Of a stretch of DNA of 64,000 nucleotides, positions 1 to 12,021 are shown piece after piece. The stretch's first letter is position 1; every line of letters begins with the position of its first letter. The DNA is taken from positions 1-64,000 of the IMG/VR virus record IMGVR_UViG_3300022752_000054; one strand, given 5' to 3'. A model generated the notes under the pieces. The model was not told where the DNA came from. It did no database searches and saw nothing but the letters and a program-made list of their open reading frames with translations. The DNA is from a virus. Made by a program: the position numbers and the translations under genes.

Positions 1-1
1 G

Positions 2-250
2 GTGGAACGAGGATCTAGAGATTTTGGAGGAACCGTGAAAACATTTCGAATTGAATCCAAGGATTTTCTAACCTGTTACAAGGCTCTCCGCCATTCCGAG
101 AGGATTTTCAAGGAGGCAATTCTGAGGAAGGATTTTCCAATGGAATCCAGTGAGGGTGAGTTTATTGGTTATCTTGCCGATATTCAGGAAACCAAGGAGA
201 AGATTGAGATGATTATGAAGGGTGATGAACCAAAGGAGGAGTTGCACTGA
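2..250 (+). CDS. hypothetical protein (possibly 5'-truncated)
   Basis: ORF coupled to the next gene (TGATG). Confidence 0.55.
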   Translation: MERGSRDFGGTVKTFRIESKDFLTCYKALRHSERIFKEAILRKDFPMESSEGEFIGYLADIQETKEKIEMIMKGDEPKEELH

Positions 251-678
251 TGAATACCGAACAAAAATACCTGATCAAGTACATGAGTGATATCGTGAAT
301 AACCCGGATGATCCACGAAAAAACCTGTATTGGGGAGAGAGTGGTGAGAGGTGGTATACCGATCCAAACATGGCAACCAGGTTCAATAATCCTGAAGGAA
401 TCTCAGAGGTTGGTAGGTTGCTTGTGGAACACGAATGGGTTACTCGATTGATTCGTGTGGAGGAGGTTCCAATGGTAAAACCAATCTCTCCACCGAATTC
501 TGGATTCATTCTCGTGGTGGATTGTGATGGAGATCCTCAGGAGGTATTCCCAGGAAATACCAGCATCGATCAGGTGTTTCAAGCGATCCAAAAGCTGGAT
601 AAGGATTCAGGTTATCATCCTCATTCCGCTTGGAAGTGGGGTACAGGTGGATTTTCCAGGGTTTTAGATAGGATCTGA
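250..678 (+). CDS. hypothetical protein; C-terminal domain paralogous to 1664..1855
   Basis: GAGGAG SD; DxDGD...PH(S/T)AWxW motif. Confidence 0.7.
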   Translation: MNTEQKYLIKYMSDIVNNPDDPRKNLYWGESGERWYTDPNMATRFNNPEGISEVGRLLVEHEWVTRLIRVEEVPMVKPISPPNSGFILVVDCDGDPQEVFPGNTSIDQVFQAIQKLDKDSGYHPHSAWKWGTGGFSRVLDRI

Positions 679-679
679 T

Positions 680-892
680 ATGTGTGAGGAATACTGTGGT
701 AAGGTATCATGGTGGTTAACCGATGAGTTCAAGGGGGTGAAAACATCGGAGATTCCAAACGCAAAGGATTTTCCTTGTTTCAATCCGAATTGTGAGGTGA
801 GGTTCAACCTTGCATTGGGGTATAGTGTTGGTGGTAGGAGTTATTGTTCCATTGAGTGTTTGAATCGCGCGGAGGAAATGAAACATGAGTGA
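680..892 (+). CDS. small Cys-rich (zinc-finger-like) protein
   Basis: CxNPxC...YCSxxC. Confidence 0.6.
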   Translation: MCEEYCGKVSWWLTDEFKGVKTSEIPNAKDFPCFNPNCEVRFNLALGYSVGGRSYCSIECLNRAEEMKHE

Positions 893-1142
893 TAAAATCG
901 ATCTGGAAGGAAACAAGGTGATTCCTGTACCAGGCCCAACCGCCACGAGCACAAAAGTTACTGCTGAGATGATCGTTGGATCGGTTGAGATCGATGATGA
1001 TGGAAACTCCAAGGTGAATTATTTTGTGAAGTTCTCCACCGAGAACAGCAACCATCACATTCTTTACCCCTGGGAGGGATTGAAAAGTTTAGTGCTTCAA
1101 TGGGTAAATATTGAAAAGGAGATGGGAAAGAATGTTGAATGA
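885..1142 (+). CDS. hypothetical protein
   Basis: overlapping operon ORF. Confidence 0.65.
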   Translation: MSDKIDLEGNKVIPVPGPTATSTKVTAEMIVGSVEIDDDGNSKVNYFVKFSTENSNHHILYPWEGLKSLVLQWVNIEKEMGKNVE

Positions 1143-1410
1143 TTGGAAACCTTTCACCGTGATTCCGGCCGGAGAGTTTAAGAATTCCAAAGGTGAAATG
1201 GAGGATTTCTACTATGTTGTTCTTCAGGTTCCGGGGTTTCAAACATTGGAACAATTCGAAGGAACTCTTCAGGAATGCCGGGAGGAGTGCCATGAGTTGA
1301 ATGTGAGAATCGGAGCATCACTATCACAACACATCATGGATGAGAATAAGAAACCAGGTAGGGTTACAATGGATCCTTGGGGTTCCTTGATGGGTAGGAA
1401 GGAAACATGA
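1132..1410 (+). CDS. hypothetical protein
   Basis: overlapping operon ORF. Confidence 0.6.
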   Translation: MLNDWKPFTVIPAGEFKNSKGEMEDFYYVVLQVPGFQTLEQFEGTLQECREECHELNVRIGASLSQHIMDENKKPGRVTMDPWGSLMGRKET

Positions 1411-1667
1411 GTGATTCCTACAAGTATGGGTACCAATCAGGGCCTTTCTACCGAAAGTTTCTGGCCGGTGATAATGTTTGGTGTGAGGTGAATAGGGATG
1501 GAGATGGTGGGCTTTGGTTACACCTTGGAAATTCCTTTGAGGGCCATCCATCACCGGAATCCAAACCAATTCACTTCAGTTCCGAGGAACAATTCATGGA
1601 GTTCTGCACCAAACTTCTAGGTGTGGATCACAATGGATTTGAGGAGTTCTGGTTGAGGTGGGGATGA
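1407..1667 (+). CDS. hypothetical protein
   Basis: ATGA coupling. Confidence 0.65.
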   Translation: MSDSYKYGYQSGPFYRKFLAGDNVWCEVNRDGDGGLWLHLGNSFEGHPSPESKPIHFSSEEQFMEFCTKLLGVDHNGFEEFWLRWG

Positions 1668-1855
1668 AGAAGGATGAGATCCAGTTCCCCAATGAGTTTG
1701 TGGCCATCCTGGATAAGGATGGTGATGTGGTGGATTTTTGTTCACCGAATGATGATGTGATTCAATCCTTACGAAGGTTGTTGGATGGAGAGAATCCTGA
1801 GGATGTTCCTCATACCGCCTGGGTTTGGAACCGTGGGTGGAGAAGGTGGGATTGA
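1664..1855 (+). CDS. hypothetical protein, paralog of the C-terminus of 250..678
   Basis: ATGA coupling; shared motif. Confidence 0.65.
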   Translation: MKKDEIQFPNEFVAILDKDGDVVDFCSPNDDVIQSLRRLLDGENPEDVPHTAWVWNRGWRRWD

Positions 1856-1892
1856 GGTGGAATTTTTGTTGGGTGAGGAATAATTAGATACC

Positions 1893-2192
1893 ATGAAACT
1901 AACCGCAACACAACTACGTAGGATAATCGCAGAAGAAGTTAAGAGAGCAACCCTCAAGGAGGAACTGGGGTATGGTACCGGTTCAGCCGAGTTACAAACC
2001 ATGTTAGATGTGGTTTGTGATGGTTGGAAATCCCAGTTTGATCCCAAGGATCCAAGCATGGATGCCAGTGGGGGTAAACAGGTTTGGGAAGCCCAGTGCG
2101 AAGCGGCTTGCGAAGTTCTCGGTGAAAAAATTGAGGAACTCATCATGCAGGTTGAGGAAGATCTTCACCTCGGGCAGTTCTATAAGGGTTGA
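1893..2192 (+). CDS. LRxIIxEE-leader protein (putative virion internal protein)
   Basis: MKLTATQLRRIIAEEV...LKEE; ATAATTA 6 nt upstream. Confidence 0.75.
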   Translation: MKLTATQLRRIIAEEVKRATLKEELGYGTGSAELQTMLDVVCDGWKSQFDPKDPSMDASGGKQVWEAQCEAACEVLGEKIEELIMQVEEDLHLGQFYKG

Positions 2193-2194
2193 TC

Positions 2195-2488
2195 ATGAAG
2201 ATCACAGTATCACAGTTGCGTAGGATTATCCGTGAAGAGGTGGAGAGAGTAACCGGAGCTCCATTGAAGGATGGTGGTGTTGTTAACCGTGATTCCGGTG
2301 AGATTCTGGATATGGATAGTGTTCCTCCTCAATACCTCGATCACATTGAGGTTGATGAGATGGGTTATACCACCCTTCCAAATGATAAGTTTGAGGAACT
2401 TCGTGGTGAACTGAAGGGTTTATCCGCGGGGAAACCAAAGAAACAAAGGTTGGCCCCGTTTCAAATCAACAGGATGCACAAAAGGTAA
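2195..2488 (+). CDS. LRxIIxEE-leader protein
   Basis: MKITVSQLRRIIREEV. Confidence 0.75.
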   Translation: MKITVSQLRRIIREEVERVTGAPLKDGGVVNRDSGEILDMDSVPPQYLDHIEVDEMGYTTLPNDKFEELRGELKGLSAGKPKKQRLAPFQINRMHKR

Positions 2489-2504
2489 CCCTGGATTACC
2501 TTCC

Positions 2505-2534
2505 GTGTAAAACCCGGTGAGGGTTGGATATTAT
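2505..2534 (+). promoter_or_regulatory. class I phage promoter (GTGTAA-N18-TATTAT)
   Basis: recurrent motif; ATG 6 nt after the -10 box. Confidence 0.65.
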
Positions 2535-2540
2535 CGAACC

Positions 2541-2765
2541 ATGTTACCGAGTGTTGGGGATATGGTTCGAATACATTTTGATGGGTTGGGTTCCTCCGGT
2601 GAAACCCTGGATGGAATTGTGTTGGATGTGATGTTTGTGGATCACATGGCCAAGTTGAACCGGGATAACAACTCACGGTGGATTTCATCACGAATGTTGG
2701 TGGATGGTAGGCCGAGGGTGGTGGATCTGTATTGGGATGATGAAGTGGAAGTGTTAAATACATGA
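2541..2765 (+). CDS. small KOW/SH3-like 'GDLV' family protein
   Basis: VGDMVRI...GIVL...VEVL. Confidence 0.7.
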   Translation: MLPSVGDMVRIHFDGLGSSGETLDGIVLDVMFVDHMAKLNRDNNSRWISSRMLVDGRPRVVDLYWDDEVEVLNT

Positions 2766-2941
2766 GTTTCCAGGTAAAAGATCTGGTGTTTGTGAAGGGT
2801 TCACGAACCTTGTATCAAATTCCACTCATCATTGTTGATATTCAAAGTTTTCAAGATGGTGTTGATTACATCCTACTTGATCCACAAACAGGAAATCGTT
2901 ATGCATATCAAAAACATGATCTAATGGATTCTCCACAGTGA
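2762..2941 (+). CDS. small 'GDLV' family protein (59 aa, absent from the ORF track)
   Basis: MSFQVKDLVFVKG...; coupled at both ends. Confidence 0.65.
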   Translation: MSFQVKDLVFVKGSRTLYQIPLIIVDIQSFQDGVDYILLDPQTGNRYAYQKHDLMDSPQ

Positions 2942-3156
2942 AAATTGGAACATTGGTAAAACCAAGGAGAAACAAAGGAATTCCTATCGATCTAATATCA
3001 CCTGATATTAAGTGTTATGTACCAATGGGATTGAATCAGGTTGGTATTGTAATCGATCCACTACCAAGTTCCTATGGAACCTTTGTTAGGTTATTGGTTG
3101 ATGGAAGGATTGGAGATGGATATCGAGTTGATTTTGAGGTAATAAGTGATCAATGA
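2938..3156 (+). CDS. small 'GDLV' family protein
   Basis: MKIGTLV...GIVI...FEVI. Confidence 0.7.
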   Translation: MKIGTLVKPRRNKGIPIDLISPDIKCYVPMGLNQVGIVIDPLPSSYGTFVRLLVDGRIGDGYRVDFEVISDQ

Positions 3157-3413
3157 AATTCTCGGTTGGAAACCTGGTGTTGGTAAATGGATACCAAAGA
3201 AAACTTTGGGGAAGTGAAGAGGAATTGGTTAGAGGTTATAAAACCTATCCAGGTGAATATGGTTATCATGGTTCCATATGGGTTGAACCAGGTTGTGGTG
3301 TGGTTTTAGGTGTAAAAAAAGAATTCATTCAGGTTTTAATTCATTCCTATTTTATTTGGTTTGAAAAAACTCAACTTGAACCGGTGAGGCACCATGAAGT
3401 ACCGTTACCCTAA
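3153..3413 (+). CDS. small 'GDLV' family protein
   Basis: VGNLV...GVVL. Confidence 0.7.
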   Translation: MKFSVGNLVLVNGYQRKLWGSEEELVRGYKTYPGEYGYHGSIWVEPGCGVVLGVKKEFIQVLIHSYFIWFEKTQLEPVRHHEVPLP

Positions 3414-3630
3414 AAAGAAGTATAAGATAGGTGATATGTTCACCGCAAATTTTCCATGGGAATCCCAGGAGGTTTGGAGTGAACTTCATGGTTTCATTCC
3501 TGAAGGAATTCATAGAGGAGATTCTCTACTGGTACTTCAGGTGGTGGATAAAAGATTGAAGGTTTTAACACCTCAGGGTACCGTTGGTTGGGTTTCGGTG
3601 AACATATTCGAGGATGATCACCATTTGTAA
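3394..3630 (+). CDS. small 'GDLV' family protein
   Basis: KIGDM...KVLTPQGTVGWV. Confidence 0.7.
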   Translation: MKYRYPKKKYKIGDMFTANFPWESQEVWSELHGFIPEGIHRGDSLLVLQVVDKRLKVLTPQGTVGWVSVNIFEDDHHL

Positions 3631-3685
3631 CAATCAAATTTCAATGATGAAACCGAGGAGAGTTTGATGAATTTTAGTTATCACC

Positions 3686-4726
3686 ATGAAGAAAATTTCC
3701 TCAGTGGTGATGGGTTTTTTATCTTTGTTGTTCATCGCAAATTGTAGGATTCGTGTTGAGGATCCGTTGGGGGAAAATCAATCCACCCTCAAATCTCAGG
3801 GAAAAACGAAGGTTGTTCTTCTAACCATCGATGGTGTAAGATGGGAAGAGGTGTTCTTTGGAACTGATTCAAGGTTATACAAGAAACACAGTTTAACACC
3901 TGAGGAACTTCTACCGAACATATACCATTACTTTGTGGAGAAAGGTTCATCCTACGGAAGAGAATCACCTGTTGTTGTTTCAGGAGAGAACCATATATCT
4001 CTTCCTGGTTACCTGGAGATGATGAGGGGTTATCCCACAATGGATTGCGTTACCAATCTTTGTGAACCTGAAGTGAAACCAACATTGGTGGATAACTTTG
4101 AGAAAGTTGCGGTTTTTTCATCTTGGGATACCGTGAGGAAATCCATAAATGGTTATCCCAATCATTTCGTGGTGAACTCAGGCAGGAATCATAGATCCCA
4201 AGGTTTCCACAACATGAAAATGAAGGATGATCAGGATTTCGATTGTTATGTTGGGCATTTTGATTACCGCCCTGATGAGTTCACGATGAAATCCACCTTT
4301 GATTATCTATCCAAAGAAGTACCCAATTTCTTGTGGGTATCCCTCGGAGACACAGATGAACACGCTCACTCCAATAACTACGAAGGTTACCTCTTCGCGT
4401 TGAAGAGGTTCGATTTCTTTGTGGGTGAGATCATCAGGGAGTATGATGATGATACAATCTTCATCATCACCACAGATCATGGTAGATCTTTGGACTGGAC
4501 TCAACACGGATACGATCCACAATCCTCAAGGGTATGGTTGATGATCCATGGAAATGGGATCCCTCACTCGGGCCACGTGAAACTAGCGGGGGCAAGAACC
4601 CTATCGGATATCACCCCCACAGTTCTTCAGTTAACTCATGGGATACAGAGCAACAGATCTTTCTTGAGAACCACCGGTGAATCACTTCAATACCAACGAG
4701 CATCCTTGAAGAATGAAAACCGGTGA
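3686..4726 (+). CDS. alkaline-phosphatase-superfamily metalloenzyme with N-terminal signal (possible lipoprotein)
   Basis: LTIDGVR, SLPGY, GDTDEHAH, TTDHG metal-binding motifs; hydrophobic N-terminus ending in ANC. Confidence 0.85.
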   Translation: MKKISSVVMGFLSLLFIANCRIRVEDPLGENQSTLKSQGKTKVVLLTIDGVRWEEVFFGTDSRLYKKHSLTPEELLPNIYHYFVEKGSSYGRESPVVVSGENHISLPGYLEMMRGYPTMDCVTNLCEPEVKPTLVDNFEKVAVFSSWDTVRKSINGYPNHFVVNSGRNHRSQGFHNMKMKDDQDFDCYVGHFDYRPDEFTMKSTFDYLSKEVPNFLWVSLGDTDEHAHSNNYEGYLFALKRFDFFVGEIIREYDDDTIFIITTDHGRSLDWTQHGYDPQSSRVWLMIHGNGIPHSGHVKLAGARTLSDITPTVLQLTHGIQSNRSFLRTTGESLQYQRASLKNENR

Positions 4727-4889
4727 TTGTGTGGTGGTTAATAGAACCTTGTATCGTAGAAAAACGATTGGAATTATTCTACGTGAGGAACCTCATGCAT
4801 GGGAAACCAGGTTTTTTACGGTAATTTTACCGGATGGAAATACCGAATTGTTTTCAGAGAATAATCTAGAGGTGGTTCCAACCAAATGA
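4713..4889 (+). CDS. small 'GDLV' family protein (58 aa, absent from the ORF track)
   Basis: MKTGDCVVV...IGIIL...LEVV. Confidence 0.65.
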   Translation: MKTGDCVVVNRTLYRRKTIGIILREEPHAWETRFFTVILPDGNTELFSENNLEVVPTK

Positions 4890-5098
4890 AGATGGATTTT
4901 GGTACCGGTAAGAGTATTGATTTGGAACCGGGAGATCTTGTGAAATATGTTCCGGTGTATGGTGGTGTTAATTTTGGTGTTTTTGTTGGAACAACCAAGA
5001 AGGGTTATCCAATGAGAAGATTGAAGATGAGGTTTTTGGTGGATGGTGTTGTTCAAGAGATACCAACCGGTTTGATATTTAAGATGGAAGTTGTGTGA
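4886..5098 (+). CDS. small 'GDLV' family protein
   Basis: PGDLV...MEVV. Confidence 0.7.
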   Translation: MKMDFGTGKSIDLEPGDLVKYVPVYGGVNFGVFVGTTKKGYPMRRLKMRFLVDGVVQEIPTGLIFKMEVV

Positions 5099-5307
5099 TG
5101 AAAACCGGGGATCTCATTTGGTACTATGATGAACATAATTCCTTGAGGAATGATTTCCTTGGGATATACCTGAGTTCCAGGGGAACCAAATGGAGTGATA
5201 AACATATGTTCCATAAGGTGATCCTGTGTGGGGGAGGAATAGATGAGTTTGTTTTGAGGATTGGTGGAGAAGGTAGGATAGAGGTGGTTCAGGGGTGGGA
5301 GGAATGA
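5098..5307 (+). CDS. small 'GDLV' family protein
   Basis: MKTGDLI...GIYL...IEVV. Confidence 0.7.
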   Translation: MKTGDLIWYYDEHNSLRNDFLGIYLSSRGTKWSDKHMFHKVILCGGGIDEFVLRIGGEGRIEVVQGWEE

Positions 5308-5549
5308 AAATTCGCTCAGGAGATTTGATGTTTTCCAATGTTGGAACCAATGTTTGGGATACCCCTGGAGATCATTCTCCTTCCAGTGTTGTTGATCTTC
5401 TGGAGGAAAAACAACCGGTGATTGTGTTGGAAATTTACAAGAGAAAATACTATGAACACAACCTCACCGAGATAAAGGTTCTCACCCCCAATGGTGCGGT
5501 TGGGTGGGTTGCGATAGAGAAGGTTGATAAGGTTTGGGTGATAATGTGA
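5304..5549 (+). CDS. small 'GDLV' family protein
   Basis: SGDLM...KVLTPNGAVGWV. Confidence 0.7.
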   Translation: MKIRSGDLMFSNVGTNVWDTPGDHSPSSVVDLLEEKQPVIVLEIYKRKYYEHNLTEIKVLTPNGAVGWVAIEKVDKVWVIM

Positions 5550-5806
5550 TCCCTGGTGATTCGGTACGAGTTTTATCTGTAAAGAACCACCACAATGATC
5601 TCCACCGGGTATACGATATCCCTGTTAAATTCCGTTGGGTAGGTGAATCCGTGGTTCCACGTTCCTTCATCTTCAAGGTTCCAGGTGGATCACTTGGAAT
5701 CATTCTGGAAATCCAAGGTGAACAACTCAAGGTTCTGTTCCACGGTGGTTCCGTGGGGTGGATCAAGAGTGAACTTGTGGAAGTTGTGGATATCCACACC
5801 CTGTGA
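5546..5806 (+). CDS. small 'GDLV' family protein
   Basis: PGDSV...GIIL...VGWI...VEVV. Confidence 0.7.
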   Translation: MIPGDSVRVLSVKNHHNDLHRVYDIPVKFRWVGESVVPRSFIFKVPGGSLGIILEIQGEQLKVLFHGGSVGWIKSELVEVVDIHTL

Positions 5807-5832
5807 AATCCTCCACCCACAGGTGATACAAT
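5803..5832 (+). promoter_or_regulatory. class I promoter (GTGAAA-N18-TACAAT)
   Basis: ATG 6 nt downstream. Confidence 0.65.
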
Positions 5833-5838
5833 ATACCT

Positions 5839-6057
5839 ATGGAATACCACTCCGGTGATCTCATCCTGGTAAAACCCGGAACCCATGTTCCACCAGGATC
5901 CAGGTATTCTTCAGGGATCATCATCAAATCCTACGAGGATCCCATGTTTCCACGTGTAACTCCTGAAATCTTCCTCGATATCCTGTGGGTGGATGGGCAT
6001 CAATCAACCCAAAGCATCAGGCTCGTAAAACCCTACTATGAATTCATCAAACCTTAA
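5839..6057 (+). CDS. small 'GDLV' family protein
   Basis: SGDLI...ILWVDGHQ. Confidence 0.7.
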   Translation: MEYHSGDLILVKPGTHVPPGSRYSSGIIIKSYEDPMFPRVTPEIFLDILWVDGHQSTQSIRLVKPYYEFIKP

Positions 6058-6286
6058 ACCCGGTTCACTTCTCAAGGTAAACCACCACGTGGTTCCGAAA
6101 CTTCGTTTCAACCACGAACTTCCCGATGATATCCATTGGGATGGAAAATCCATGGTTTACCCCAACGATATCCTCATTTACCTCGGGGTGGAAATCATCC
6201 GTTTCGTTCACTTCGCTCGTGTTTTCTCATCCTCCCACGGCCGAACCGGTTACGCGGCCCTCCAATACCTCTCGGATCTCAAATGA
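6038..6286 (+). CDS. small 'GDLV' family protein
   Basis: PGSLL...VFSSSHGRTGY; paralog of the next ORF. Confidence 0.7.
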   Translation: MNSSNLKPGSLLKVNHHVVPKLRFNHELPDDIHWDGKSMVYPNDILIYLGVEIIRFVHFARVFSSSHGRTGYAALQYLSDLK

Positions 6287-6528
6287 AACACCCCGAATTT
6301 CCAGGAGGAACCCTTCTCAAACTCCACGGTTCCCTTCTCTCCACCTCATTCCACAATGATGGTGTGGATAACCTATGGAATGGAGAACATCGCATCCATC
6401 CCCAGGAAATCCTCATTTCCCTAGGAAAAACCCTCAGGACTTTCACCCACTACACCCTCGTTTTCTCTCCCACCCACAATCGGGCAGGTTACATTAGAAC
6501 GGATCACATCTCGGAAATTCAACCATGA
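6283..6528 (+). CDS. small 'GDLV' family protein
   Basis: ATGA-coupled start MKHPEFPGGTLL...VFSPTHNRAGY. Confidence 0.65.
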   Translation: MKHPEFPGGTLLKLHGSLLSTSFHNDGVDNLWNGEHRIHPQEILISLGKTLRTFTHYTLVFSPTHNRAGYIRTDHISEIQP

Positions 6529-6713
6529 AAATTGGAGATCTACTTCAAAAACGCAGGATAACCTCCACCTCCTCTAAAATCCTTGGAATCCTACTGGATG
6601 AACCACAATTCCCCAGGTATGGAAACCATCCAAAGTACTATAGAATCCTAACCCCACAAGGAACCGTGGAAATCATAACGGATCAACACAAATACCTCAT
6701 AGAGGTTGTTTGA
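6525..6713 (+). CDS. small 'GDLV' family protein
   Basis: MKIGDLL...IEVV. Confidence 0.7.
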   Translation: MKIGDLLQKRRITSTSSKILGILLDEPQFPRYGNHPKYYRILTPQGTVEIITDQHKYLIEVV

Positions 6714-6925
6714 ATCCCCCTCCACTCGGATCCCTGGTTCTATACCACTTTGGAAATTCCAAGGTTTTTGGGATCATCACATCAATAATTCGAGGAGGAG
6801 AAGAACAATTTTACCCTATCCCATCATTATTCACACTTGAAATAATGGAAACCGGTGGAAGAAAAACATGGTGGGATATACACGAATCGGATCTTCTCAA
6901 CGGTAAATTTCAGGTTCTCCAGTGA
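6710..6925 (+). CDS. small 'GDLV' family protein
   Basis: LGSLV...FQVL. Confidence 0.65.
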   Translation: MNPPPLGSLVLYHFGNSKVFGIITSIIRGGEEQFYPIPSLFTLEIMETGGRKTWWDIHESDLLNGKFQVLQ

Positions 6926-7134
6926 AAATTGGTGATCTGGTGAGCATCACCCACATCGTTGGGATTCGCATGGAAACCAAAACCACGGTAGGAATACTTC
7001 TCTCCTACGAACCGGTTGAACCCAACATGTACGATAACATCTACGATCTTGAGATACTCACCACCGAAGGTAACGTAATCGGGCTCGGAATTTTTCACGG
7101 TGATAAACTGGAGGTGATCAGTGAAGATTGGTGA
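6922..7134 (+). CDS. small 'GDLV' family protein
   Basis: MKIGDLV...LEVISE. Confidence 0.7.
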   Translation: MKIGDLVSITHIVGIRMETKTTVGILLSYEPVEPNMYDNIYDLEILTTEGNVIGLGIFHGDKLEVISEDW

Positions 7135-7333
7135 TCTACTGGTTCCACTCAACTCCTCCACATCCCATAAACATCATCCAGGATTGGTAACAGGTTTAAC
7201 CGATAAAAGCTCCAACTTCAACGTGGTATACATCACCTGGAGGAATGGGGTAACCGATGGTTGGGATCACAACTTCGTTATCAAAAACTTCGAGGTGATC
7301 AGTGAACAAAACCCGGATCCCAAGTGTAAATGA
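7121..7333 (+). CDS. small 'GDLV' family protein
   Basis: MKIGDLL...FEVISE. Confidence 0.7.
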   Translation: MKIGDLLVPLNSSTSHKHHPGLVTGLTDKSSNFNVVYITWRNGVTDGWDHNFVIKNFEVISEQNPDPKCK

Positions 7334-7490
7334 TGTGATTCCAGGGGTACTGGTTCTCCACCATCTCACCCCAGAAATCGGAATTGTTCTCCGTGTAAAT
7401 TGGGAGATGGTTGAGTTACTATCGTGCAATGGATCGGTGGTTAGTTGGGAATTCGATTCATTTCGAAGCACCTATGAGATTCCACTATGA
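7302..7490 (+). CDS. small 'GDLV' family protein
   Basis: PGVLV...GIVL. Confidence 0.6.
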   Translation: MNKTRIPSVNDVIPGVLVLHHLTPEIGIVLRVNWEMVELLSCNGSVVSWEFDSFRSTYEIPL

Positions 7491-7675
7491 AAAAAGGTGA
7501 TCTGGTTCTAATCGATCATTATCATCCCAGGGATTCACCACAATCCTATGGGATCTACATCAAGGATATTCAACTACGAGATCCTCGATACACACCATCA
7601 TTTCCAACCTGTGAAATCATCACCTCCAATGGTTTACAGGTAATTGGAGTGGAAAGAATCCATGTACTACTATGA
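7487..7675 (+). CDS. small 'GDLV' family protein
   Basis: MKKGDLV. Confidence 0.7.
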   Translation: MKKGDLVLIDHYHPRDSPQSYGIYIKDIQLRDPRYTPSFPTCEIITSNGLQVIGVERIHVLL

Positions 7676-7854
7676 AACCCTCTGAGGTTCAGGTTGGAGA
7701 TCTTATGATCACAACAGATTTTCTAGATGCGGATCTACAACTGGTACTTCGGGTGGATCACAACCGGGATCTCGTTGATGTTTTCACCCCCAGGCTCGGG
7801 AAGGTGGAACAATATCGTTCCTCCTGGATTAAAGGTTGTGAAAAGGTTTGTTAA
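7672..7854 (+). CDS. small 'GDLV' family protein
   Basis: VGDLM. Confidence 0.65.
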   Translation: MKPSEVQVGDLMITTDFLDADLQLVLRVDHNRDLVDVFTPRLGKVEQYRSSWIKGCEKVC

Positions 7855-8306
7855 ACCTCAATGATTTCCTTTATCCAACCCCTAGGAATCGAAGGTAATG
7901 ATGTTCCTATTTCTCCATCCACACCATCAGGAAATTCATTCATAAACTCATAGTAACCATCATCACCACTTCCAAACCTATCATCAGGAACCACAAACTG
8001 GGGATTCAAATATTTCTTTGGAATTTCAACCCTAACCATCACCCCTTCTTTGGTTACCCACCTCGGAGAATCATACCAACCCACGGTAAAATAAATTCCA
8101 TGTGATTCCGATTGAAGTTTTAATCCACCCTTCTCAATCGAATCCTTGTTACTCAATGGTGATTCATGGGTTACACGAAGAAAACCTCCACTTCCATCCG
8201 CAAGATGATTTAAGGTGGAATAAAACCAAACCTTCTCAGGAATCCAATCCTCTTCCTCCAGGTTTTCCCTTATCAATCTTCTCAAATCACCAAGTGAAAT
8301 CTTCAT
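7851..8306 (-). CDS. LRxIIxEE-leader protein with putative ADP-ribosyltransferase-fold (H-Y-E/Tpt1-like) domain
   Basis: MKISLGDLRRLIRENLEEE; THES...SIEKGGL...GIYFT...EI...IPRGWI. Confidence 0.6.
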   Translation of the reverse strand: MKISLGDLRRLIRENLEEEDWIPEKVWFYSTLNHLADGSGGFLRVTHESPLSNKDSIEKGGLKLQSESHGIYFTVGWYDSPRWVTKEGVMVRVEIPKKYLNPQFVVPDDRFGSGDDGYYEFMNEFPDGVDGEIGTSLPSIPRGWIKEIIEV

Positions 8307-8364
8307 GGGGTTAATTATACAATTGAGTTGATATTATGAATTCCAATCGAATTGGAGATCTGTT

Positions 8365-9207
8365 TCAACTTTCTTGTTGAAGTTTTTTTAACTTTCGTTT
8401 TTCCCATGCTTTCTTCATGGATTCACTAACACGTTTTCTATGCTCAGGATCTTCCCACATTTTTTTATTTCTTTCTTTCATTTTTTCTTTATATTCAGGA
8501 TCTTCCCATAATTTTTTACTCATTTCACAATGATTTTTTCTATATTCAGGATCTTCCCATAATTTTTTACTCATTTCACTCATCTTTTCTTTATGTTCAG
8601 GATCCTCCCATAATTTCTCACTCATTTCACTCATCTTTTCTTTGAATCCTGGTTTCTCCCACATTTTCTTGCTCAATTCACCAACTTTCTTCTTAACCTC
8701 GGGATCTTCCCAAACCTTTCTACTTGCTTCTTTCCAATGTTCTCTGTATTTAGGATCCTCCCATTTTTTCTTCAATGATTCACTTACGGTTTTTTTGTGT
8801 TCAGGATCCTCCCACATTTTCTTGCTCAATTCACTCATTTTTTCTCTATGCTCAGGATTCACCAAAGTTTTTTTCAGTGATTTACTCAATTTTTCTTTGC
8901 TCTCAACCGTATGTTTACATCCTGAAAAACCTTCTCCACCATGGGTAAAATTAGCTCCACCTTCACCAAGATCAAAATAGGTTTTTAATTCCTGGATGAG
9001 TTCAATTTCTTTCTGAAAAGCTTCCTGTTCACTGTGAGTTTCAAGAACGATTTTCCTAACCATCCCATGTTTGTTTTTGATGTTGGTATGAAGAGGATTT
9101 CTTTTCTCTAATTTCACTCGTTTATCCAAACCTTTTCCAACGTAAAAAGGTTTCCCATCATCTTCTCTGAAATCAACATACACGAAGAATTTTTGTTCAG
9201 TTTTCAC
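8365..9207 (-). CDS. GIY-YIG homing endonuclease with NUMOD3-like and ~17-aa tandem DNA-binding repeats
   Basis: FFVY...PFYVGKG...R; ANFTHGGEG; KHTVESKEKLS; repeated KKxWEDPExKEKMSE. Confidence 0.85.
   Translation of the reverse strand: MKTEQKFFVYVDFREDDGKPFYVGKGLDKRVKLEKRNPLHTNIKNKHGMVRKIVLETHSEQEAFQKEIELIQELKTYFDLGEGGANFTHGGEGFSGCKHTVESKEKLSKSLKKTLVNPEHREKMSELSKKMWEDPEHKKTVSESLKKKWEDPKYREHWKEASRKVWEDPEVKKKVGELSKKMWEKPGFKEKMSEMSEKLWEDPEHKEKMSEMSKKLWEDPEYRKNHCEMSKKLWEDPEYKEKMKERNKKMWEDPEHRKRVSESMKKAWEKRKLKKLQQES
8420..8870 (-). repeat. coding 51-bp degenerate tandem repeat (~9 units)
   Basis: recurring TCAGGATC(T/C)TCCCA at ~51-nt period. Confidence 0.8.
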
Positions 9208-9305: not shown

Positions 9306-9494
9306 ATGTTTCGTGTTGGTGATTTGATCAAGTACATCAACCTAACACCGTATGGTGAACCTGAGTACCTAGGTGTTGTTCTGGAATACCATGAAACCTG
9401 GGTGAAAATGTTGTGGTGTTTCAATTTTCCTGGAAAAATTCACATTCAGGATTTCAACATCAAAGATCCAGAACAATGGAAGGTTATCCAGTGA
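9306..9494 (+). CDS. small 'GDLV' family protein
   Basis: MFRVGDLI...GVVL. Confidence 0.7.
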   Translation: MFRVGDLIKYINLTPYGEPEYLGVVLEYHETWVKMLWCFNFPGKIHIQDFNIKDPEQWKVIQ

Positions 9495-9685
9495 AAACCG
9501 GTGATTTGCTTAGAAACAAACAACCAGGTACCACCCACATCACCGGGTTGATCCTAGAAATTTTTCCAAATGGAACTGTGAGGAACAAAGCACAACAAAC
9601 ACTCACAAAAATGTTATGGAGTGATGGGCACCAAACCGTGGAATTCTTGGAAGATCTAAAGGAATACTATGAGGTTATCCAGTGA
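9491..9685 (+). CDS. small 'GDLV' family protein
   Basis: GTG start, KTGDLL...MLWSDGHQ; paralog of 5839. Confidence 0.7.
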   Translation: MKTGDLLRNKQPGTTHITGLILEIFPNGTVRNKAQQTLTKMLWSDGHQTVEFLEDLKEYYEVIQ

Positions 9686-9897
9686 GTTTCATTGGTAAAT
9701 TGGTTAGAATGGATCTTCCTCCACCTCATCCTCACTATGGTGAAACCGGTGTGATTATCCGGGTAAGGAAACCAACCGGTGGAACCGGAGATGGTTATCG
9801 TGGATCCAGGATTCTATATGATATCCTGTGTGAGGGGGAGATATTAGAGGATCAACTATATGAATACTTTGTTGAAGTGGATATGAGGGAGTGGTGA
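9682..9897 (+). CDS. small 'GDLV' family protein
   Basis: IGKLV...GVII. Confidence 0.65.
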   Translation: MSFIGKLVRMDLPPPHPHYGETGVIIRVRKPTGGTGDGYRGSRILYDILCEGEILEDQLYEYFVEVDMREW

Positions 9898-10091
9898 GAA
9901 ATATTCGCATTGGTGAATTATACCACTGTAGGTGGATGGAATGGGATGAAGATATCCTTGAGGTTTGTTTGGTGATTGGAAAAGAAAAAATCTACCATGG
10001 GTTTGAGAATCCTTACCAATACACGGTGTTGAGATCCAATGGAAAACTTCATCATCTTCATTCCAATGGAATTGGAGAGGAAATCAGGTGA
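9891..10091 (+). CDS. small 'GDLV' family protein
   Basis: RIGELY. Confidence 0.65.
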   Translation: MVRNIRIGELYHCRWMEWDEDILEVCLVIGKEKIYHGFENPYQYTVLRSNGKLHHLHSNGIGEEIR

Positions 10092-10324
10092 AGGTAGGTG
10101 ATCTTGTTCGCACTCATATGTTTGGTGATCATGTATTCCTTGGTATTGTATTGGATATCCAACCAATGAAGGATGTTTACAAGGATTCACGCCGTGGTGA
10201 GAGAATGAATTCGGTAAAGATACTATGGGAAAAACCTGTACCTGGTTGGTTGGGTGAAGGAAGAATTTGTGAAGTAACTGATTCAATTCTTCAGGTGGTG
10301 GAACCGGAGGAATTAGGTGAGTGA
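10088..10324 (+). CDS. small 'GDLV' family protein
   Basis: MKVGDLV...GIVL...LQVV. Confidence 0.7.
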   Translation: MKVGDLVRTHMFGDHVFLGIVLDIQPMKDVYKDSRRGERMNSVKILWEKPVPGWLGEGRICEVTDSILQVVEPEELGE

Positions 10325-10514
10325 TAAACACCGCGGATTTTTACCTGGAGATCAGGTGAAGGTGGTTAATCCCTGGTACACCAGGAAACCCCCACAACTC
10401 GGTGTTGTTATCGAGGTGGTTCCTAGTGGTGGTGTGGTTAATTCTAACAGGATAAAATTGGTGGTTCCTGAAGGAATTACCTGGAGATGGGATCATGAGT
10501 GCGAGAGAATTTGA
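10317..10514 (+). CDS. small 'GDLV' family protein
   Basis: PGDQV...GVVI. Confidence 0.7.
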   Translation: MSDKHRGFLPGDQVKVVNPWYTRKPPQLGVVIEVVPSGGVVNSNRIKLVVPEGITWRWDHECERI

Positions 10515-10725
10515 GTTAGGTTCTCTGGTGAAATTGACCAGAACCTATATTCAACACCCATCCAAACCTGTTCTTGGTATCCTGCTTGAATATGAAAAGT
10601 TTGATGATAACAATGGGGCCTTTGGAAAGGTTTCAAAAATAAAACTATTGTTATCCAATGGAATTTCCAAAGATTATTTCCTGTTCAAGGAGGATGAATT
10701 GGAGGTGGTTGGTGAAGGTAGGTGA
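10495..10725 (+). CDS. small 'GDLV' family protein
   Basis: LGSLV...GILL...LEVV. Confidence 0.7.
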   Translation: MSAREFELGSLVKLTRTYIQHPSKPVLGILLEYEKFDDNNGAFGKVSKIKLLLSNGISKDYFLFKEDELEVVGEGR

Positions 10726-10907
10726 GTTATACCGTGTTTGGAAATTTGAGGAGGAATACCTGGTTGGGATGTACCTTGGGGCCCGGGAGGGAGAAGGTAA
10801 CCGGGGAACTTTTGTTTCCGAAGTTCTATAGGTTCCTAACCTTGAATGGTGAGGTTATGGATGTTGATTTGAATAACAAATTGGTTTATGGTAGTGAGAA
10901 ATTGTGA
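10712..10907 (+). pseudogene. 'GDLV' family gene with an apparent +1 frameshift at the G-run 10778-10781
   Basis: KVGELYRV...GMYLG in one frame continues as PGREK...FLTLNGEV in the next frame. Confidence 0.5.
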
Positions 10908-11089
10908 GTATTGGTTCAATATCCCCAGGTGATTTGGTGATTCATTCCTATGGAATTCCAATGATCGGTATGGTGTTGGAGGTTAGGGGTGAATTTCCTT
11001 GGAGTTACCGAGTGGTGTGGAATTCAGGGGAGATAAAGGATTGTGAGATGGGTACCGTGAGGAGAGTATGGTGTTATGAAGGTAGGTGA
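10904..11089 (+). CDS. small 'GDLV' family protein
   Basis: PGDLV...GMVL. Confidence 0.7.
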   Translation: MSIGSISPGDLVIHSYGIPMIGMVLEVRGEFPWSYRVVWNSGEIKDCEMGTVRRVWCYEGR

Positions 11090-11324
11090 TTTGGTTACCC
11101 CAGATCCCCGGGGATGTACCGATAGGGGTTTACATGTTTACCCATTTTGGGGTTCCAAGGATACCGGAATACCGGTACCGGTGGGAAGTTGGAAGTTGGG
11201 TGAGGTTGGTGTGATACTGGAATCACTTGAGGTTCAAGGTGGAAATGGTTGTAAGGTGTTGTGTGGTGGTGTTTCAGGTTGGGTTTACCTATGTTACCTG
11301 AAAATTGTGGATGATGAAAAGTAA
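11076..11324 (+). CDS. small 'GDLV' family protein
   Basis: MKVGDLV...SGWV...LKIV. Confidence 0.7.
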   Translation: MKVGDLVTPDPRGCTDRGLHVYPFWGSKDTGIPVPVGSWKLGEVGVILESLEVQGGNGCKVLCGGVSGWVYLCYLKIVDDEK

Positions 11325-11411
11325 AATGAGGTTTTACTTTGGTGTAGGAAAGGTAACCCCAGGGATATTTTTGTGAGGAAGAGGAGTACCTCAGGAATAT
11401 GGCCTTTGGAT

Positions 11412-11594
11412 ATGATCACCGGTGATTTGGTGTTGCGTGAGGATTTTGATGGGAGAAATATATTGATTTTTATGGGATGGGTGGATAGAAACAAATACCA
11501 TGCCATGATTTATGATTATCAGGGTTATAGGTCTTTTTGGTTTAACCCGAATTATTCGATGGAGAAATGGTGGATTATAAACCCGATAGAATAA
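11412..11594 (+). CDS. small 'GDLV' family protein
   Basis: MITGDLV. Confidence 0.6.
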   Translation: MITGDLVLREDFDGRNILIFMGWVDRNKYHAMIYDYQGYRSFWFNPNYSMEKWWIINPIE

Positions 11595-11779
11595 CCGTTG
11601 GTGATCTGGTGAATTGGTATGAGAAGGAACTTGGGGCCAGTGTTACCGGTTTGGTTTTGGGGGTGAAACCCCATACATTTTATCCGGAAGTTGATACATA
11701 TTCGATTCTGGATCTTGAAGGTTTGAAGAGGGAGATACATTCCTCGGTGTGGCCGGAGTATAGGATTTTGAATCGATGA
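11567..11779 (+). CDS. small 'GDLV' family protein
   Basis: VGDLV...GLVL. Confidence 0.7.
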   Translation: MVDYKPDRITVGDLVNWYEKELGASVTGLVLGVKPHTFYPEVDTYSILDLEGLKREIHSSVWPEYRILNR

Positions 11780-12021
11780 AGAATGTGTGGAATAGTAGTG
11801 ATAATGGGGGAAATCCACCTGAGGGGTTGGATGAAAAGGTGAGGAAGGGTGATCTGGTTAGGTTTACCCATTTTCCTTCATTTAATGGTTTTGTGGGGAT
11901 TTACCTGGGTGTTGAGGATAATGGTGATGGTAGATCCAAGTGGAAGTTTGCTACCGATAAGGGAATGGAATGGGTGGATCCAAAGGGGTTGTCACATTAC
12001 CGGGTGGATTTGGTGGATTGA
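11776..12021 (+). CDS. small 'GDLV' family protein
   Basis: KGDLV...GIYL. Confidence 0.7.
   Translation: MKNVWNSSDNGGNPPEGLDEKVRKGDLVRFTHFPSFNGFVGIYLGVEDNGDGRSKWKFATDKGMEWVDPKGLSHYRVDLVD

What the first reader, a model, noticed from the sequence alone, without database searches (positions are those of the whole stretch)
1..12020. 12-kb zone almost free of GAC/GTC and strongly depleted of GC dinucleotides, ending sharply at ~12,020
Seen: reading by eye I found only six GAC/GTC in 1-12,020 (4349, 4493, 4498, 6438, 10536, 11531/11991 region), where a few hundred are expected at ~40% GC. Stretches such as ~2905-3388 and ~10783-11401 contain no GC dinucleotide at all. The pressure reaches the proteins: many ORFs here have zero Ala (GCN), and Asp is almost always GAT. 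CCGG, GATC, GGATCC, GAATTC and CCWGG stay abundant, so this is not general palindrome avoidance. From 12,023 onward usage is normal, and paralogs of the same small-ORF family at 53.6-54.2 kb are Ala-rich. Inference: this is region-specific selection against a G(W)C-directed threat or mark. It could be first-injected DNA that must survive a host nuclease or DNA-modifying defence (analogous to restriction-site-poor T5 first-step-transfer DNA). Alternatively, it could be DNA kept free of the phage's own base modification so that host RNA polymerase can read it.
Basis: partly seen in the sequence, partly recalled or inferred. Interest (0 to 1): 0.88.

Follow-up and report, generated by a model that had tools for sequence, protein, structure and literature searches.

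The report
GAC/GTC-free gene array in phage
A 12-kb block of about 45 small genes in a giant lake-water phage has been rewritten by natural selection to avoid the DNA words GAC/GTC and GC, even at the cost of alanine, which points to an unidentified activity that reads these short words on DNA.

Summary
In 1-12,020 there are 7 GAC/GTC where about 305-350 are expected, and 117 GC where about 530 are expected. [quoted passage not shown]

- **Source.** The contig is about 23% of an uncultured freshwater phage genome of roughly 300 kb.
- **Conservation.** The same purge appears in all 15 metagenome loci found and in four related virus records. One of these is complete, with a single 13-kb zone. 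Another has a 20.5-kb zone with both borders inside the contig.
- **Negative controls.** Three more distant relatives have no purge, although two of them carry the same small-gene arrays.
- **Selection.** The word counts are strand-symmetric. GAC/GTC is avoided across codon junctions, and in a close relative through paired substitutions. This points to ongoing selection on double-stranded DNA.
- **Two pressures.** GAC/GTC loss and GC loss can occur separately.
- **Contents.** The zone is a cassette-swapping array of SH3-like small genes.

Its position relative to the physical genome ends is unknown, so the first-entry idea is untested. No motif-specific methylase or DpdA was found. The purged lineage does encode a cytosine-type 5-hydroxymethylase. 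This scan has noted different words purged in early cassettes of other phages.

The parts
1..12021 (.). GAC/GTC-free, GC-poor zone. It is cut at the left by the contig end and ends at the stop codon of the last gene of the array.
2..7854 (+). Tightly packed chain of about 30 small + strand ORFs, many with overlapping stop and start codons. Most belong to one SH3-like family with the consensus M-K-x-G-D-L-V ... G-I-V-L ... G ... W ... E-V.
3686..4726 (+). 346-aa alkaline-phosphatase-superfamily enzyme (Metalloenzyme/Sulfatase/Phosphodiest). It is absent from the close relatives G001 and G002 yet already purged: it holds 3 of the 7 residual GAC/GTC.
7851..8306 (-). 151-aa ORF on the opposite strand, also free of GAC/GTC. 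Its N-terminus resembles the MKLTATQLRRII leader seen on other proteins of this phage.
8365..9207 (-). 280-aa homing-endonuclease-like ORF with repeated KKxWEDPE motifs, also free of GAC/GTC. It is replaced by 215 other letters in one public contig and is present in several copies in the zone of G005.
9306..12021 (+). Second part of the + strand small-gene chain (about 13 ORFs of the same family).
5803..5838 (+). Promoter-like site GTGAAA-N18-TACAAT, 6 bases before an ATG (leaderless type). It is a GC-free variant of the GTGCAAA-N17-TAGGAT-N6-ATG sites found outside the zone at 55566, 64743 and 67171.
12023..13567 (-). Convergent neighbour: a 514-aa virion structural protein (phrog_10356) with normal word usage. 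It marks the sharp right border, 1 base after the array's stop codon.

Best explanation
The zone is an accessory, fast-turnover array of about 45 small genes, mostly one SH3-like family, in a clade of freshwater phages with genomes of roughly 300 kb. Continuing purifying selection on double-stranded DNA words keeps it free of GAC/GTC and, less strictly and separably, of GC.

The most likely cause is a DNA-acting activity that is a stable attribute of this phage lineage rather than of a particular host strain. I favour one tied to its predicted 5-hydroxymethylcytosine-based DNA chemistry. It could be one of two things:
- a tailoring enzyme of the phage that marks G(N0-1)C; or
- a nuclease or glycosylase that attacks modified cytosines where two of them lie 1-2 bp apart on opposite strands.

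On this view the array must stay unmarked or uncut because its genes have to work before the rest of the genome is protected or needed.

Shown: the depletion, its strand symmetry, the signature of selection, its conservation, its restriction to one sub-lineage, and the hydroxymethylase gene. Inferred: that the array is expressed early, that cytosines are really modified, and what reads the words.
For: - **Selection at the DNA level.** Codon-corrected deficits and junction avoidance. Strand-symmetric counts despite G 25.8% against C 17.3% on the sense strand. Genes on the opposite strand are purged too. In a close relative, 14 of 15 potential GAC/GTC-creating substitutions carry a compensating neighbouring change, by several different mutational routes.
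- **A conserved reader.** The same two words are purged in all 15 metagenome loci (54-99% aa identity to one zone gene) and in G001, G002, G004 and G005. G002 and G004 share only 157 of 275 ORFs, at about 50% mean identity. Sequences of the zone occur in 20 runs from 16 studies of lake, freshwater, estuary and marine water.
- **A derived lineage trait, not a family trait.** G007 and G008 (both estimated complete) carry arrays of the same family with GAC/GTC 36 (expected 31) and 82 (expected 57). No 2-3-mer is purged anywhere in their genomes. G003 has none either.
- **DNA chemistry.** G002, G004 and G005 (3 of 3 purged records searched) have a ThyA-family protein. The G004 copy's best solved relative is CMP 5-hydroxymethylase (146 bits, against 86 for the best thymidylate synthase). 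It keeps the catalytic Cys and has Asp where thymidylate synthase has the base-selecting Asn (the meaning of that residue is recalled knowledge). G004 and G002 also have a separate ThyX, a thymidylate-kinase-like gene and a small PolX-like gene that are absent from G003, G007 and G008.
- **Early-array look.** A co-oriented chain of tiny genes of unknown function that converges on virion genes, with cassette gain and loss between strains.
Against: - No enzyme with word specificity was found. C5 methylase, N4/N6 methylase and TGT/DpdA are absent from complete G004. TET/JBP gave no hit, but that search's control was silent.
- A nucleotide-level hydroxymethylase would modify every C, not only C in certain words.
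- G008 has a hydroxymethylase-like gene but no purge, so the link rests on 3 purged against 3 unpurged records and is not exclusive.
- The hydroxymethylase is not on the 73-kb contig itself; it is inferred from relatives.
- Expression timing is unknown. The same promoter type occurs inside and outside the zone. Two or three zone proteins carry the N-terminal leader that other readers took for a virion-loading tag.
- The G004 zone tolerates an inserted 393-aa gene with 26 GAC/GTC, which fits poorly with any model in which one site in the block is fatal.
- G and C cannot be told apart as the relevant base, because both words are self-complementary sets.
Confidence: 0.4

Rival explanations
1. First-entering (T5-like or T7-like leading) DNA. 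On this view the zone is the segment that enters the cell first. It has lost the core words of host restriction or other nuclease systems so that it survives until its anti-defence genes are expressed.
For: There is precedent. T5-like phages are restricted only when sites lie in the first-step-transfer region (PMC10644984, passages read). Autographiviridae escape a Type I system when the motif is absent from the leading region (PMC12455610, abstract). The zone is a hypervariable array of small unknown genes, as leading regions are. Long contigs of G000, G001, G002, the 115.8-kb record behind L016 and the 20.2-kb record behind L022 all end inside the zone.
Against: The contig ends are better explained by strain-level cassette variation that fragments assemblies. 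They fall at different homologous positions. The zone is a single internal copy in complete G004 and in G005. No terminal repeat was found. There is no non-coding stop region at the border. A host restriction system is usually strain-variable, whereas the purged words are constant across deeply diverged phages from many waters. The G004 zone holds an insert with 26 sites.
Confidence: 0.22
2. RNA-level avoidance. On this view the early mRNAs avoid GAC, GUC and GC to escape a short-motif RNA-targeting activity, such as an mRNA interferase toxin or an RNA-modifying defence, of host or phage. This would resemble ACA-less mRNAs and MazF, or CpG suppression in the HCMV IE1 gene against ZAP.
For: The purge follows gene borders. 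The L016 left border is a junction of two overlapping ORFs. A single purged cassette sits in foreign AT-rich DNA in L011. An unpurged insert sits inside the G004 zone. Gene-specific dinucleotide suppression against an RNA sensor is known in a herpesvirus (PMC7498042, title and start of abstract seen in the listing). The motifs of MazF and MqsR are recalled.
Against: Raw counts of each word and its reverse complement are nearly equal on the sense strand (GAC 17 and GTC 16; GCA 249 and TGC 236; CGC 114 and GCG 126) although G and C differ by half. That is what a double-strand reader gives. An RNA reader would need three separate motifs that happen to form complementary sets.
Confidence: 0.08
3. 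Mutational origin. On this view a context-specific deaminase or another targeted hypermutation process destroys G(N0-1)C in this heavily transcribed or repeated array, without selection on the words.
For: The sense strand is C-poor (17.3%) and valine is raised while alanine is low, as C-to-T changes at GCN would give. The array consists of repeated paralogues.
Against: T is not raised over A on the sense strand (28.2% against 28.8%). Avoidance in the close relative uses several different second changes (ATC/GTA, ATC/GTT, AAC/GAA and others). Non-family genes and opposite-strand genes are purged alike. G+C stays at 36-45% per kb, with GG/CC raised to compensate. The borders are sharp at gene ends.
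Confidence: 0.05
4. Avoidance of priming sites. 5'-GTC-3' is the trinucleotide recognised by the T7 primase. A zone without GTC on either strand could not be primed by such an enzyme.
For: Prokaryotic and phage primases read trinucleotides. 5'-(G/T)2GTC-3' for T7 is stated at the start of the abstract of PMC12839067 (listing). GAC plus GTC equals one asymmetric 3-mer on both strands.
Against: No DnaG-type or T7-type zinc-ribbon primase domain was found in G004, G002, G005 or G000. The idea gives no reason why only this array should go unprimed, and it does not explain the GC depletion.
Confidence: 0.03
5. A small DNA-binding or cross-linking molecule. GC and GNC are the steps where guanines of opposite strands face each other in the major groove, and GpC is the classic intercalation step of actinomycin. 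On this view early transcription would have to proceed on DNA exposed to such a compound.
For: Only the geometry of the words supports this. The depletion stops after a spacing of one base: GATC and GTAC are not lower than in the rest of the genome. The chemistry is recalled, not tested.
Against: No producer or compound is known for these waters or hosts. The whole genome would be exposed, not one array. The GGCC context is spared.
Confidence: 0.02
6. Artefact or foreign origin: a chimeric assembly, or a block recently acquired from a donor with this composition.
For: The zone lies at a contig end and has a different composition.
Against: The same junction with the same neighbouring gene occurs in independent assemblies. 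X1's listed contig record 8 (7,993 letters) runs from 9165 across the border to 14000 without a difference. The zone is internal in G004 and G005. The family occurs unpurged in relatives. Avoidance continues between close strains.
Confidence: 0.01

Closest known systems
First-step-transfer (pre-early) region in the terminal repeat of T5/BF23 (Tequintavirus)
   Same: A block of about 10 kb of small host-takeover genes whose freedom from recognition sites decides whether restriction, CRISPR or Ssp systems can stop the phage (PMC10644984, passages read).
   Different: In T5 the sites are 4-13 bp motifs of particular host systems. The block is a long terminal direct repeat, followed by a non-coding injection-stop region. 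Here the words are 2-3 bases and the purge reaches protein composition. The block is single-copy and internal in complete or long relatives. Its border has no non-coding region, and its entry order is unknown.
Motif-free leading region of Autographiviridae (Murciavirus against the Type I system Mme2I)
   Same: The location of motifs in the first-injected, highly variable, anti-defence-rich region decides sensitivity (PMC12455610, abstract).
   Different: That case involves one bipartite Type I motif of one host strain. Here a 3-mer and a 2-mer are purged over 12-21 kb, constant across a deep phage lineage.
Phage cytosine hypermodification at GpC (C5-methyltransferase, then TET, then glycosylation; Burke et al. 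2021)
   Same: A phage-encoded pathway that marks cytosines specifically in the GC dinucleotide (GpC[C/T], or any GpC) and ends in 5hmC-derived bases (PMC8256090, passages read). This shows that a 2-base GC-directed DNA mark exists in phages.
   Different: No C5 methyltransferase was found in G000, G001, G002, G003, G004, G005 or G006, and no TET was found (control silent). The hydroxymethylase here is of the nucleotide-level ThyA type. No local motif-free zone is reported in the passages I read.
DpdA 7-deazaguanine modification at short motifs (GA and GGC in phage CAjan), and the GA/TC-purged early cassettes noted earlier by this scan
   Same: Short-word, phage-encoded base modification. The scan's notes e1-5940186 and e1-5766046 describe early cassettes purged of just that word.
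   Different: No TGT/DpdA was found in any of the 5 related records searched. The CAjan motifs are recalled and quoted from the scan's notes, and were not checked here. The words here are different.
CpG suppression in the immediate-early 1 gene of human cytomegalovirus (evasion of ZAP)
   Same: A gene-specific purge of a dinucleotide in a first-expressed viral gene to escape a sensor of that word (PMC7498042, title and start of abstract in the listing).
   Different: That is an RNA sensor in an animal host. Here the strand symmetry points to DNA.

Membership tests
T5-type first-step-transfer region | Lies in a long terminal direct repeat at the end that enters first | tested here: inconclusive
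   No repeat of the first 20-400 bases elsewhere in the contig. The contig is about 23% of a genome. The zone is single and internal in G004 (which has a 123-bp end overlap only) and in G005. Physical ends could not be mapped because only contigs of runs were available.
T5-type first-step-transfer region | Followed by a long non-coding region with repeats (injection stop signal) | tested here: not met
   The array's stop codon ends at 12,021 and the convergent gene's stop codon begins at 12,023.
T5-type first-step-transfer region | Free of recognition sites of nuclease defences | tested here: met
   7 GAC/GTC against about 305-350 expected; 0 GGWCC against 13; 1 GCGC against 23; 5 AGCT against 44. 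However, GATC, CCGG and CCWGG are enriched.
Motif-specific self-modification with a modification-free early cassette | The phage encodes an enzyme that marks DNA at a short motif (methyltransferase, DpdA, TET) | tested here: not met
   PF00145: 0 of 7 records. PF01702: 0 of 5. PF01555: found only in G002, out of 7 records. PF12851: 0 of 5, with a silent control. Unknown enzyme types are not excluded.
Motif-specific self-modification with a modification-free early cassette | The purged word equals the enzyme's target word | not testable with these tools
   Needs native-DNA modification calling.
hmC-type phage DNA (T4-like chemistry) | Cytosine-specific ThyA-family hydroxymethylase | tested here: met
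   Tested in relatives, not on this contig. G004 ORF 180602-181612: CMP 5-hydroxymethylase 146 bits against thymidylate synthase 86 bits; Cys kept; Asp at the thymidylate synthase Asn position. Homologues in G002 (57% identity) and G005. A separate ThyX is present.
hmC-type phage DNA (T4-like chemistry) | dCTP removal and hmC-DNA glycosyltransferases; modified base actually present in DNA | not tested
   Only a GT2 glycosyltransferase, a sugar epimerase and (in G004 only) a carbamoyltransferase were seen near or in these genomes. The chemistry needs mass spectrometry.
SH3-like small beta-barrel proteins | Five-stranded small barrel fold | tested here: met
   AlphaFold2 model of 6922-7134 built with 28 paralogues: pLDDT 89.9, five strands. 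The best PDB matches are generic barrels (GatD N-domain, bL19, Tudor/SAWADEE), all with E>=0.035. No Pfam or useful PHROG hit for the zone proteins scanned: 9 family members and the 142-, 99- and 151-aa ORFs.

The most novel reading that the evidence does not exclude
A so far undescribed DNA-word reader with only 2-3 bases of specificity (G-C and G-W-C), inherited with this phage lineage and probably coupled to hydroxymethylcytosine-type DNA, has forced a whole array of about 45 genes to be rewritten down to the near loss of alanine. This scan has also noted other words (CG, AG/CT, GA/TC, GGG/CCC, GG-centred) purged in early cassettes of unrelated phages. Together these would define a general rule: word-free 'beachhead' gene blocks whose missing word reveals, from sequence alone, the specificity of an unknown DNA modification or defence system.
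Probability: 0.35. Interest if true: 0.9.

Novelty: new variant of a known kind. Interest (0 to 1): 0.8.

Why it matters
Avoidance of restriction sites in first-entering phage DNA is known for ordinary 4-13 bp sites. Here the avoided words are so short that avoiding them costs an amino acid and constrains every codon junction over 12-21 kb. Even so, the purge is near complete and stable across a deep lineage.

This implies a strong per-site penalty from something that reads 2-3 bases on double-stranded DNA. No such reader is known for these phages or their hosts.

The same gene family occurs unpurged in sister phages, and GC loss and GAC/GTC loss can occur separately. That allows comparison of gene content and native-DNA modification between purged and unpurged relatives.

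If the link to cytosine hypermodification holds, local word deserts become a sequence-only way to predict the target motifs of unknown DNA modification or modification-dependent defence systems in uncultured viruses.

Tried and rejected
**Searches that found nothing useful**
- The cultured-phage collection gave no match: DNA of the zone and the 1414-aa protein. PrkA gave only matches of 35% identity or less.
- The 346-aa enzyme gave no relative in viral contigs.
- Pfam and PHROGs gave nothing useful for 10 and 10 zone proteins.
- Foldseek gave only generic small barrels.
- The Atlas gave nothing usable for the 341-aa lineage-specific protein.

**Analyses that did not discriminate**
- Promoter analysis. 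The simple sigma-70 scan found 9 sites against 27.8±4.7 in shuffles, which follows trivially from the lack of GAC in TTGACA. A conserved GTGCAAA-N17-TAGGAT-N6-ATG type occurs inside and outside the zone, so it does not define a temporal class.
- The list of genes shared by purged G004 and G002 but absent from G003, G007 and G008 has 42 entries. I annotated 16 of the 42. I dropped the rest, which are mostly large or poorly conserved ORFs, without a look.
- The Fpg/Nei-like glycosylase is present in all 5 relatives compared, purged or not, so I rejected it as a correlate.
- DarT1 has no consensus motif (PMC11543638, passages read), so I rejected it as a lead.
- The G-N-N-C deficit (o/e 0.68) is a by-product of sub-words. 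GATC is enriched, and GTAC is as in the rest of the genome. I did not count GAAC/GTTC separately.

**Limits of the run data**
- Read laying on 4 runs gave contigs only: no molecule ends and no usable depth. Parts without cover there mean nothing.
- G006 and G009-G011 were not fetched or profiled for composition.
- Supplementary files of papers were not opened.

**Literature**
Searches for a described local short-word purge in phage early regions listed nothing of the kind. I read only the listings plus the papers named in this report.

Full report
**What is there**

The window is the first 64,000 bases of a single 73,430-base virus record, which CheckV rates about 23% complete. In its first 12,020 bases GAC and GTC occur 7 times, at 4349, 4493, 4498, 6438, 10536, 11531 and 11991. 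Base composition predicts about 305, and the rest of the window scales to 352. GC occurs 117 times against 530 expected (o/e 0.22), G-N-C has o/e 0.13, and CG has o/e 0.54. In the rest of the contig these ratios are 0.87, 1.00 and 0.97.

The change is abrupt. Each kb before 12,000 has 0-3 GAC/GTC, and each kb after it has 14-55. The last 9.4 kb of the contig is normal too. A blind search for the longest gaps of every 2-4-mer ranks GAC, CGTC, CGAC, GTCA, GACC and CAGC first, all in this zone. The only other deserts are A/T-rich words in a 61% G+C island.

The depletion does not extend to a spacing of two bases. GATC is enriched (106 against 44 expected), and GTAC is as in the rest of the genome. 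Among GC contexts AGCT is the most depleted (5 against 44). GGCC is hardly depleted at all (17 against 23), and this holds in the zones of six relatives as well.

**It is not codon usage or chance**

I took the same 44 proteins and drew codons from 20 large genes outside the zone. This predicts GAC/GTC 313±13 and GC 321±14, against 6 and 116 observed.

Even keeping the zone's own codon usage, shuffling synonymous codons within genes predicts GAC/GTC 98±7 (minimum 81) against 6. Words that would arise across codon junctions are therefore avoided as well.

Asp is GAT 243 to GAC 2. Val GTC is 0 of 335. Alanine is 1.4% against 7.4%, and 20 of the 45 ORFs I listed have none. Part of the low alanine is a trait of the gene family: unpurged members in other phages have 1.9-3.3%.

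**What the zone encodes**

The zone is a tightly packed + strand chain of small ORFs with overlapping stops and starts. It is interrupted at 7851-9207 by two - strand ORFs that are just as free of GAC/GTC. One of these is homing-endonuclease-like.

Twenty-eight ORFs align as one family (consensus M-K-x-G-D-L-V ... G-I-V-L ... G ... W ... E-V). A profile of them hits 29 frames inside the zone and 2 elsewhere on the contig. A model of one member is a five-stranded SH3-like barrel (pLDDT 89.9) with no informative structural neighbour and no Pfam family.

A 346-aa alkaline-phosphatase-superfamily gene (3686-4726) is absent from the two closest relatives yet holds only 3 GAC/GTC.

The zone ends at the stop codon of the last array gene (12,021). 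One base later comes the stop of a convergent 514-aa virion structural gene.

**Relatives**

- **Close relative G001.** The neighbouring structural gene led to a viral contig (88% aa identity) with the same purge, starting right after the gene and running 7.8 kb to that contig's end.
- **Metagenome loci.** A zone protein (250-678) found 15 metagenome loci at 54-99% identity, and all 15 are GAC/GTC-poor around the match (o/e 0.00-0.10 in the long ones).
- **Larger virus records:**
  - G002 (278 kb, 84% complete, 97% identity in a neighbouring gene) has the zone at both contig ends: 1-5.5 kb with one site, and 270-278.4 kb with nine.
  - G004 (297,894 bp, rated complete, ends overlapping by 123 bp) has exactly one zone, at about 56.8-69.9 kb.
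  - G005 has a 20.5-kb zone (124,034-144,535) with both borders inside a 211-kb contig.
- **Sharp borders.** In L016 the last normal gene has 5 GAC/GTC in 250 bp. The next gene overlaps its stop codon and has none.
- **The two depletions are separable.** L016 3948-7500 has GAC/GTC o/e 0.07 but GC o/e 0.71 at 52-61% G+C. G005 121-124 kb has GC o/e 0.43-0.54 with normal GAC/GTC.
- **Unpurged relatives.** More distant relatives G003, G007 and G008 (97%, 100% and 100% complete) have no purged 2-3-mer anywhere. G007 and G008 nevertheless carry arrays of the same family (8 and 13 profile hits) with GAC/GTC 36 (expected 31) and 82 (expected 57).

The purge is therefore a derived trait of one sub-lineage, not of the gene family or of arrays as such. 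That sub-lineage is deep: G004 and G002 share 157 of 275 ORFs at about 50% mean identity.

**Selection, on double-stranded DNA**

In 48 kb of pooled zones oriented by sense strand, GAC occurs 17 times and GTC 16. The pairs GCA/TGC (249/236), CGC/GCG (114/126) and GCC/GGC (196/183) are also nearly equal, although G is 25.8% and C 17.3%.

Between G000 and G001 there are 6,710 aligned bases and 489 substitutions. Random placement of the same changes would create about 36±5.5 GAC/GTC. Fifteen changes would do so alone, but 14 of these carry an adjacent second change that avoids the word, by several different routes. Only one site is really gained.

In the strongly purged zones even the -35-like element GTGCAAA of the phage's leaderless promoter type appears as GTGTAAA or GTGAAA (small numbers).

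**Turnover and contig ends**

Public runs hold the zone in 20 rows from 16 studies of lake, freshwater, estuary and marine water. Laying the contigs of four runs shows gene-sized gains and losses (for example 204->680, 6524->6922, 7851->9671). It also shows many short contigs in the zone, and contigs that continue leftward beyond position 36 with other, equally GAC/GTC-free letters.

This explains why five long contigs end inside the zone without invoking a physical end.

A single purged cassette of about 1.15 kb (95% identical to 250-678) sits in L011 inside 25-38% G+C DNA with normal word usage. An unpurged 393-aa gene sits inside the G004 zone. The property thus travels with genes.

- **Not found.** C5 methyltransferase is absent from 7 records, including complete G004. 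TGT/DpdA is absent from 5. N4/N6 methyltransferase is present only in G002. TET/JBP was not found, but its control was silent. DnaG-type and T7-type primase zinc ribbons are absent from the purged records.
- **Found.** All three purged records searched have a ThyA-family protein. The G004 copy matches CMP 5-hydroxymethylase far better (146 bits) than any thymidylate synthase (86 bits). It keeps the catalytic cysteine and has Asp where thymidylate synthase has Asn in the P-F-N motif. By recalled knowledge, that switch selects cytosine.
- **Lineage-specific genes.** G004 and G002 also have ThyX, a thymidylate-kinase-like gene, a small PolX-like gene and a CN-hydrolase that G003, G007 and G008 lack.
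- **Neighbourhood.** A sugar epimerase sits beside the hydroxymethylase in both G004 and G002, and G004 adds a carbamoyltransferase.
- **Against an exclusive link.** G008 has a hydroxymethylase-like gene without a purge, G003 has a canonical ThyA, and G007 has none.

The lineage probably carries 5-hydroxymethylcytosine-derived DNA. What makes GC and GWC special is not identified.

**Weighing the mechanisms**

The constancy of the words across a deep, widespread lineage argues for a reader that is inherited with the phage or universal in its hosts, rather than a strain-variable restriction system. So does the absence of the purge from sister phages with the same array.

The words are exactly those in which the two cytosines (or guanines) of opposite strands lie one or two base pairs apart in one polarity. 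CG and CWG, the other polarity, are much less affected (0.54 and about 0.7). A symmetric DNA-binding enzyme would fit this. So would damage that becomes a double-strand break only where both strands are hit close together.

I therefore favour a link to the phage's own cytosine chemistry, at 0.4. It has good precedent but no positional support here, and it fits the G004 insert poorly. RNA-level, mutational, primase and small-molecule readings are less likely, for the reasons given under the rivals.

That the array is early is inferred only from its look and from its convergence on virion genes.

**Comparison with what is known**

The nearest described cases are site-free first-entering DNA in T5-like phages and Autographiviridae, which differ in word length, extent and genome position. 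The next nearest is GpC-directed cytosine hypermodification in metagenomic phages, whose enzymes are not found here.

I found no paper describing a local 2-3-mer purge in a phage (searches; listings only).

This scan's own earlier notes describe purges of other words in early cassettes of unrelated phages. They are e1-6247647, e1-5940186, e1-6008942, e1-5766046, e1-5916866 and e1-6149496. They are unchecked AI notes, which I did not test. They suggest a wider pattern but are not evidence for this case.

Noticed in passing
G004:C1:179639-184029 (L125 2-4029); G002:C1:237716-239700: A cluster in relatives: NAD-dependent sugar epimerase/dehydratase, MilA-like cytosine 5-hydroxymethylase, an unknown 221-aa ORF and (G004 only) an O-carbamoyltransferase. 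This suggests a hypermodified, possibly glycosylated or carbamoylated, hydroxymethylcytosine in the DNA of this phage lineage.
   Followed up: partly
window 30831-35278 (-): A complete PrkA, SpoVR and YeaH/DUF444 module in the phage. PrkA has 158 related stretches in viral contigs. Its best cellular matches are Bdellovibrionota/Halobacteriovorax MAG contigs at 72-83%, which may be host or mis-binned phage.
   Followed up: partly
window 36058-36885 (+): An Fpg/Nei-type DNA glycosylase (Fapy_DNA_glyco + H2TH), conserved in all five relatives compared. Purged relatives add a 193-aa PolX-like protein, hinting at phage-encoded base-excision repair.
   Followed up: partly
window 55566, 64743 (-) and G000 67171 (+); L016, L019, L022 and G004 zones: A conserved promoter-like element GTGCAAA(G)-N16-17-TGATAGGAT-N6-ATG, implying leaderless mRNAs. 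In the strongly purged zones the GC of the first element is replaced (GTGTAAA or GTGAAA).
   Followed up: partly
window 1893-2192, 2189-2488 (+), 7851-8306 (-), 52565-52819, 52853-53149 (+): A shared N-terminal segment MK(L/I)T(A/V)(T/S)QLRRII(A/R)EEV on otherwise different small proteins, inside and outside the zone. Other first readers took it for a capsid-loading tag.
   Followed up: no
L011 1803-2955: A single purged cassette of about 1.15 kb at 44% G+C, whose gene is 95% identical to window 250-678, embedded in 25-38% G+C DNA with normal GAC/GTC. It is either a recent transfer into another genome or a chimeric metagenome contig.
   Followed up: partly
window 8365-9207 (-); G005 130.3-142.4 kb: A homing-endonuclease-like gene with about ten tandem repeats of a KKxWEDPE(H/Y)(K/R) motif. 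G005 has at least four related copies inside its zone, all within the purged block.
   Followed up: no
window 53000-55600 and 61000-68000: Islands of 57-64% G+C in a genome that elsewhere ranges from 35 to 50%. They are strongly devoid of AAA/TAA/ATA. The cause of this compositional mosaic is unexplained.
   Followed up: no
G004:C1:198705-202607 (L198): A glutamine-synthetase-like gene, ThyX, and a ribonucleotide reductase fragment with an intein-splicing-domain hit.
   Followed up: no
zones of window, L022, G004, G005, G002: GGCC is nearly exempt from the GC purge (for example 17 observed against 23 expected, 22/21, 41/38), while AGCT is almost absent (5/44, 4/38, 15/64).
   Followed up: partly
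window 24365-24973 (+) and 27769-28371 (+), 41702-43324 (+): A PP-loop ATPase (TilS-like), a ClpP-like protease and a GroEL-type chaperonin encoded by the phage.
   Followed up: no
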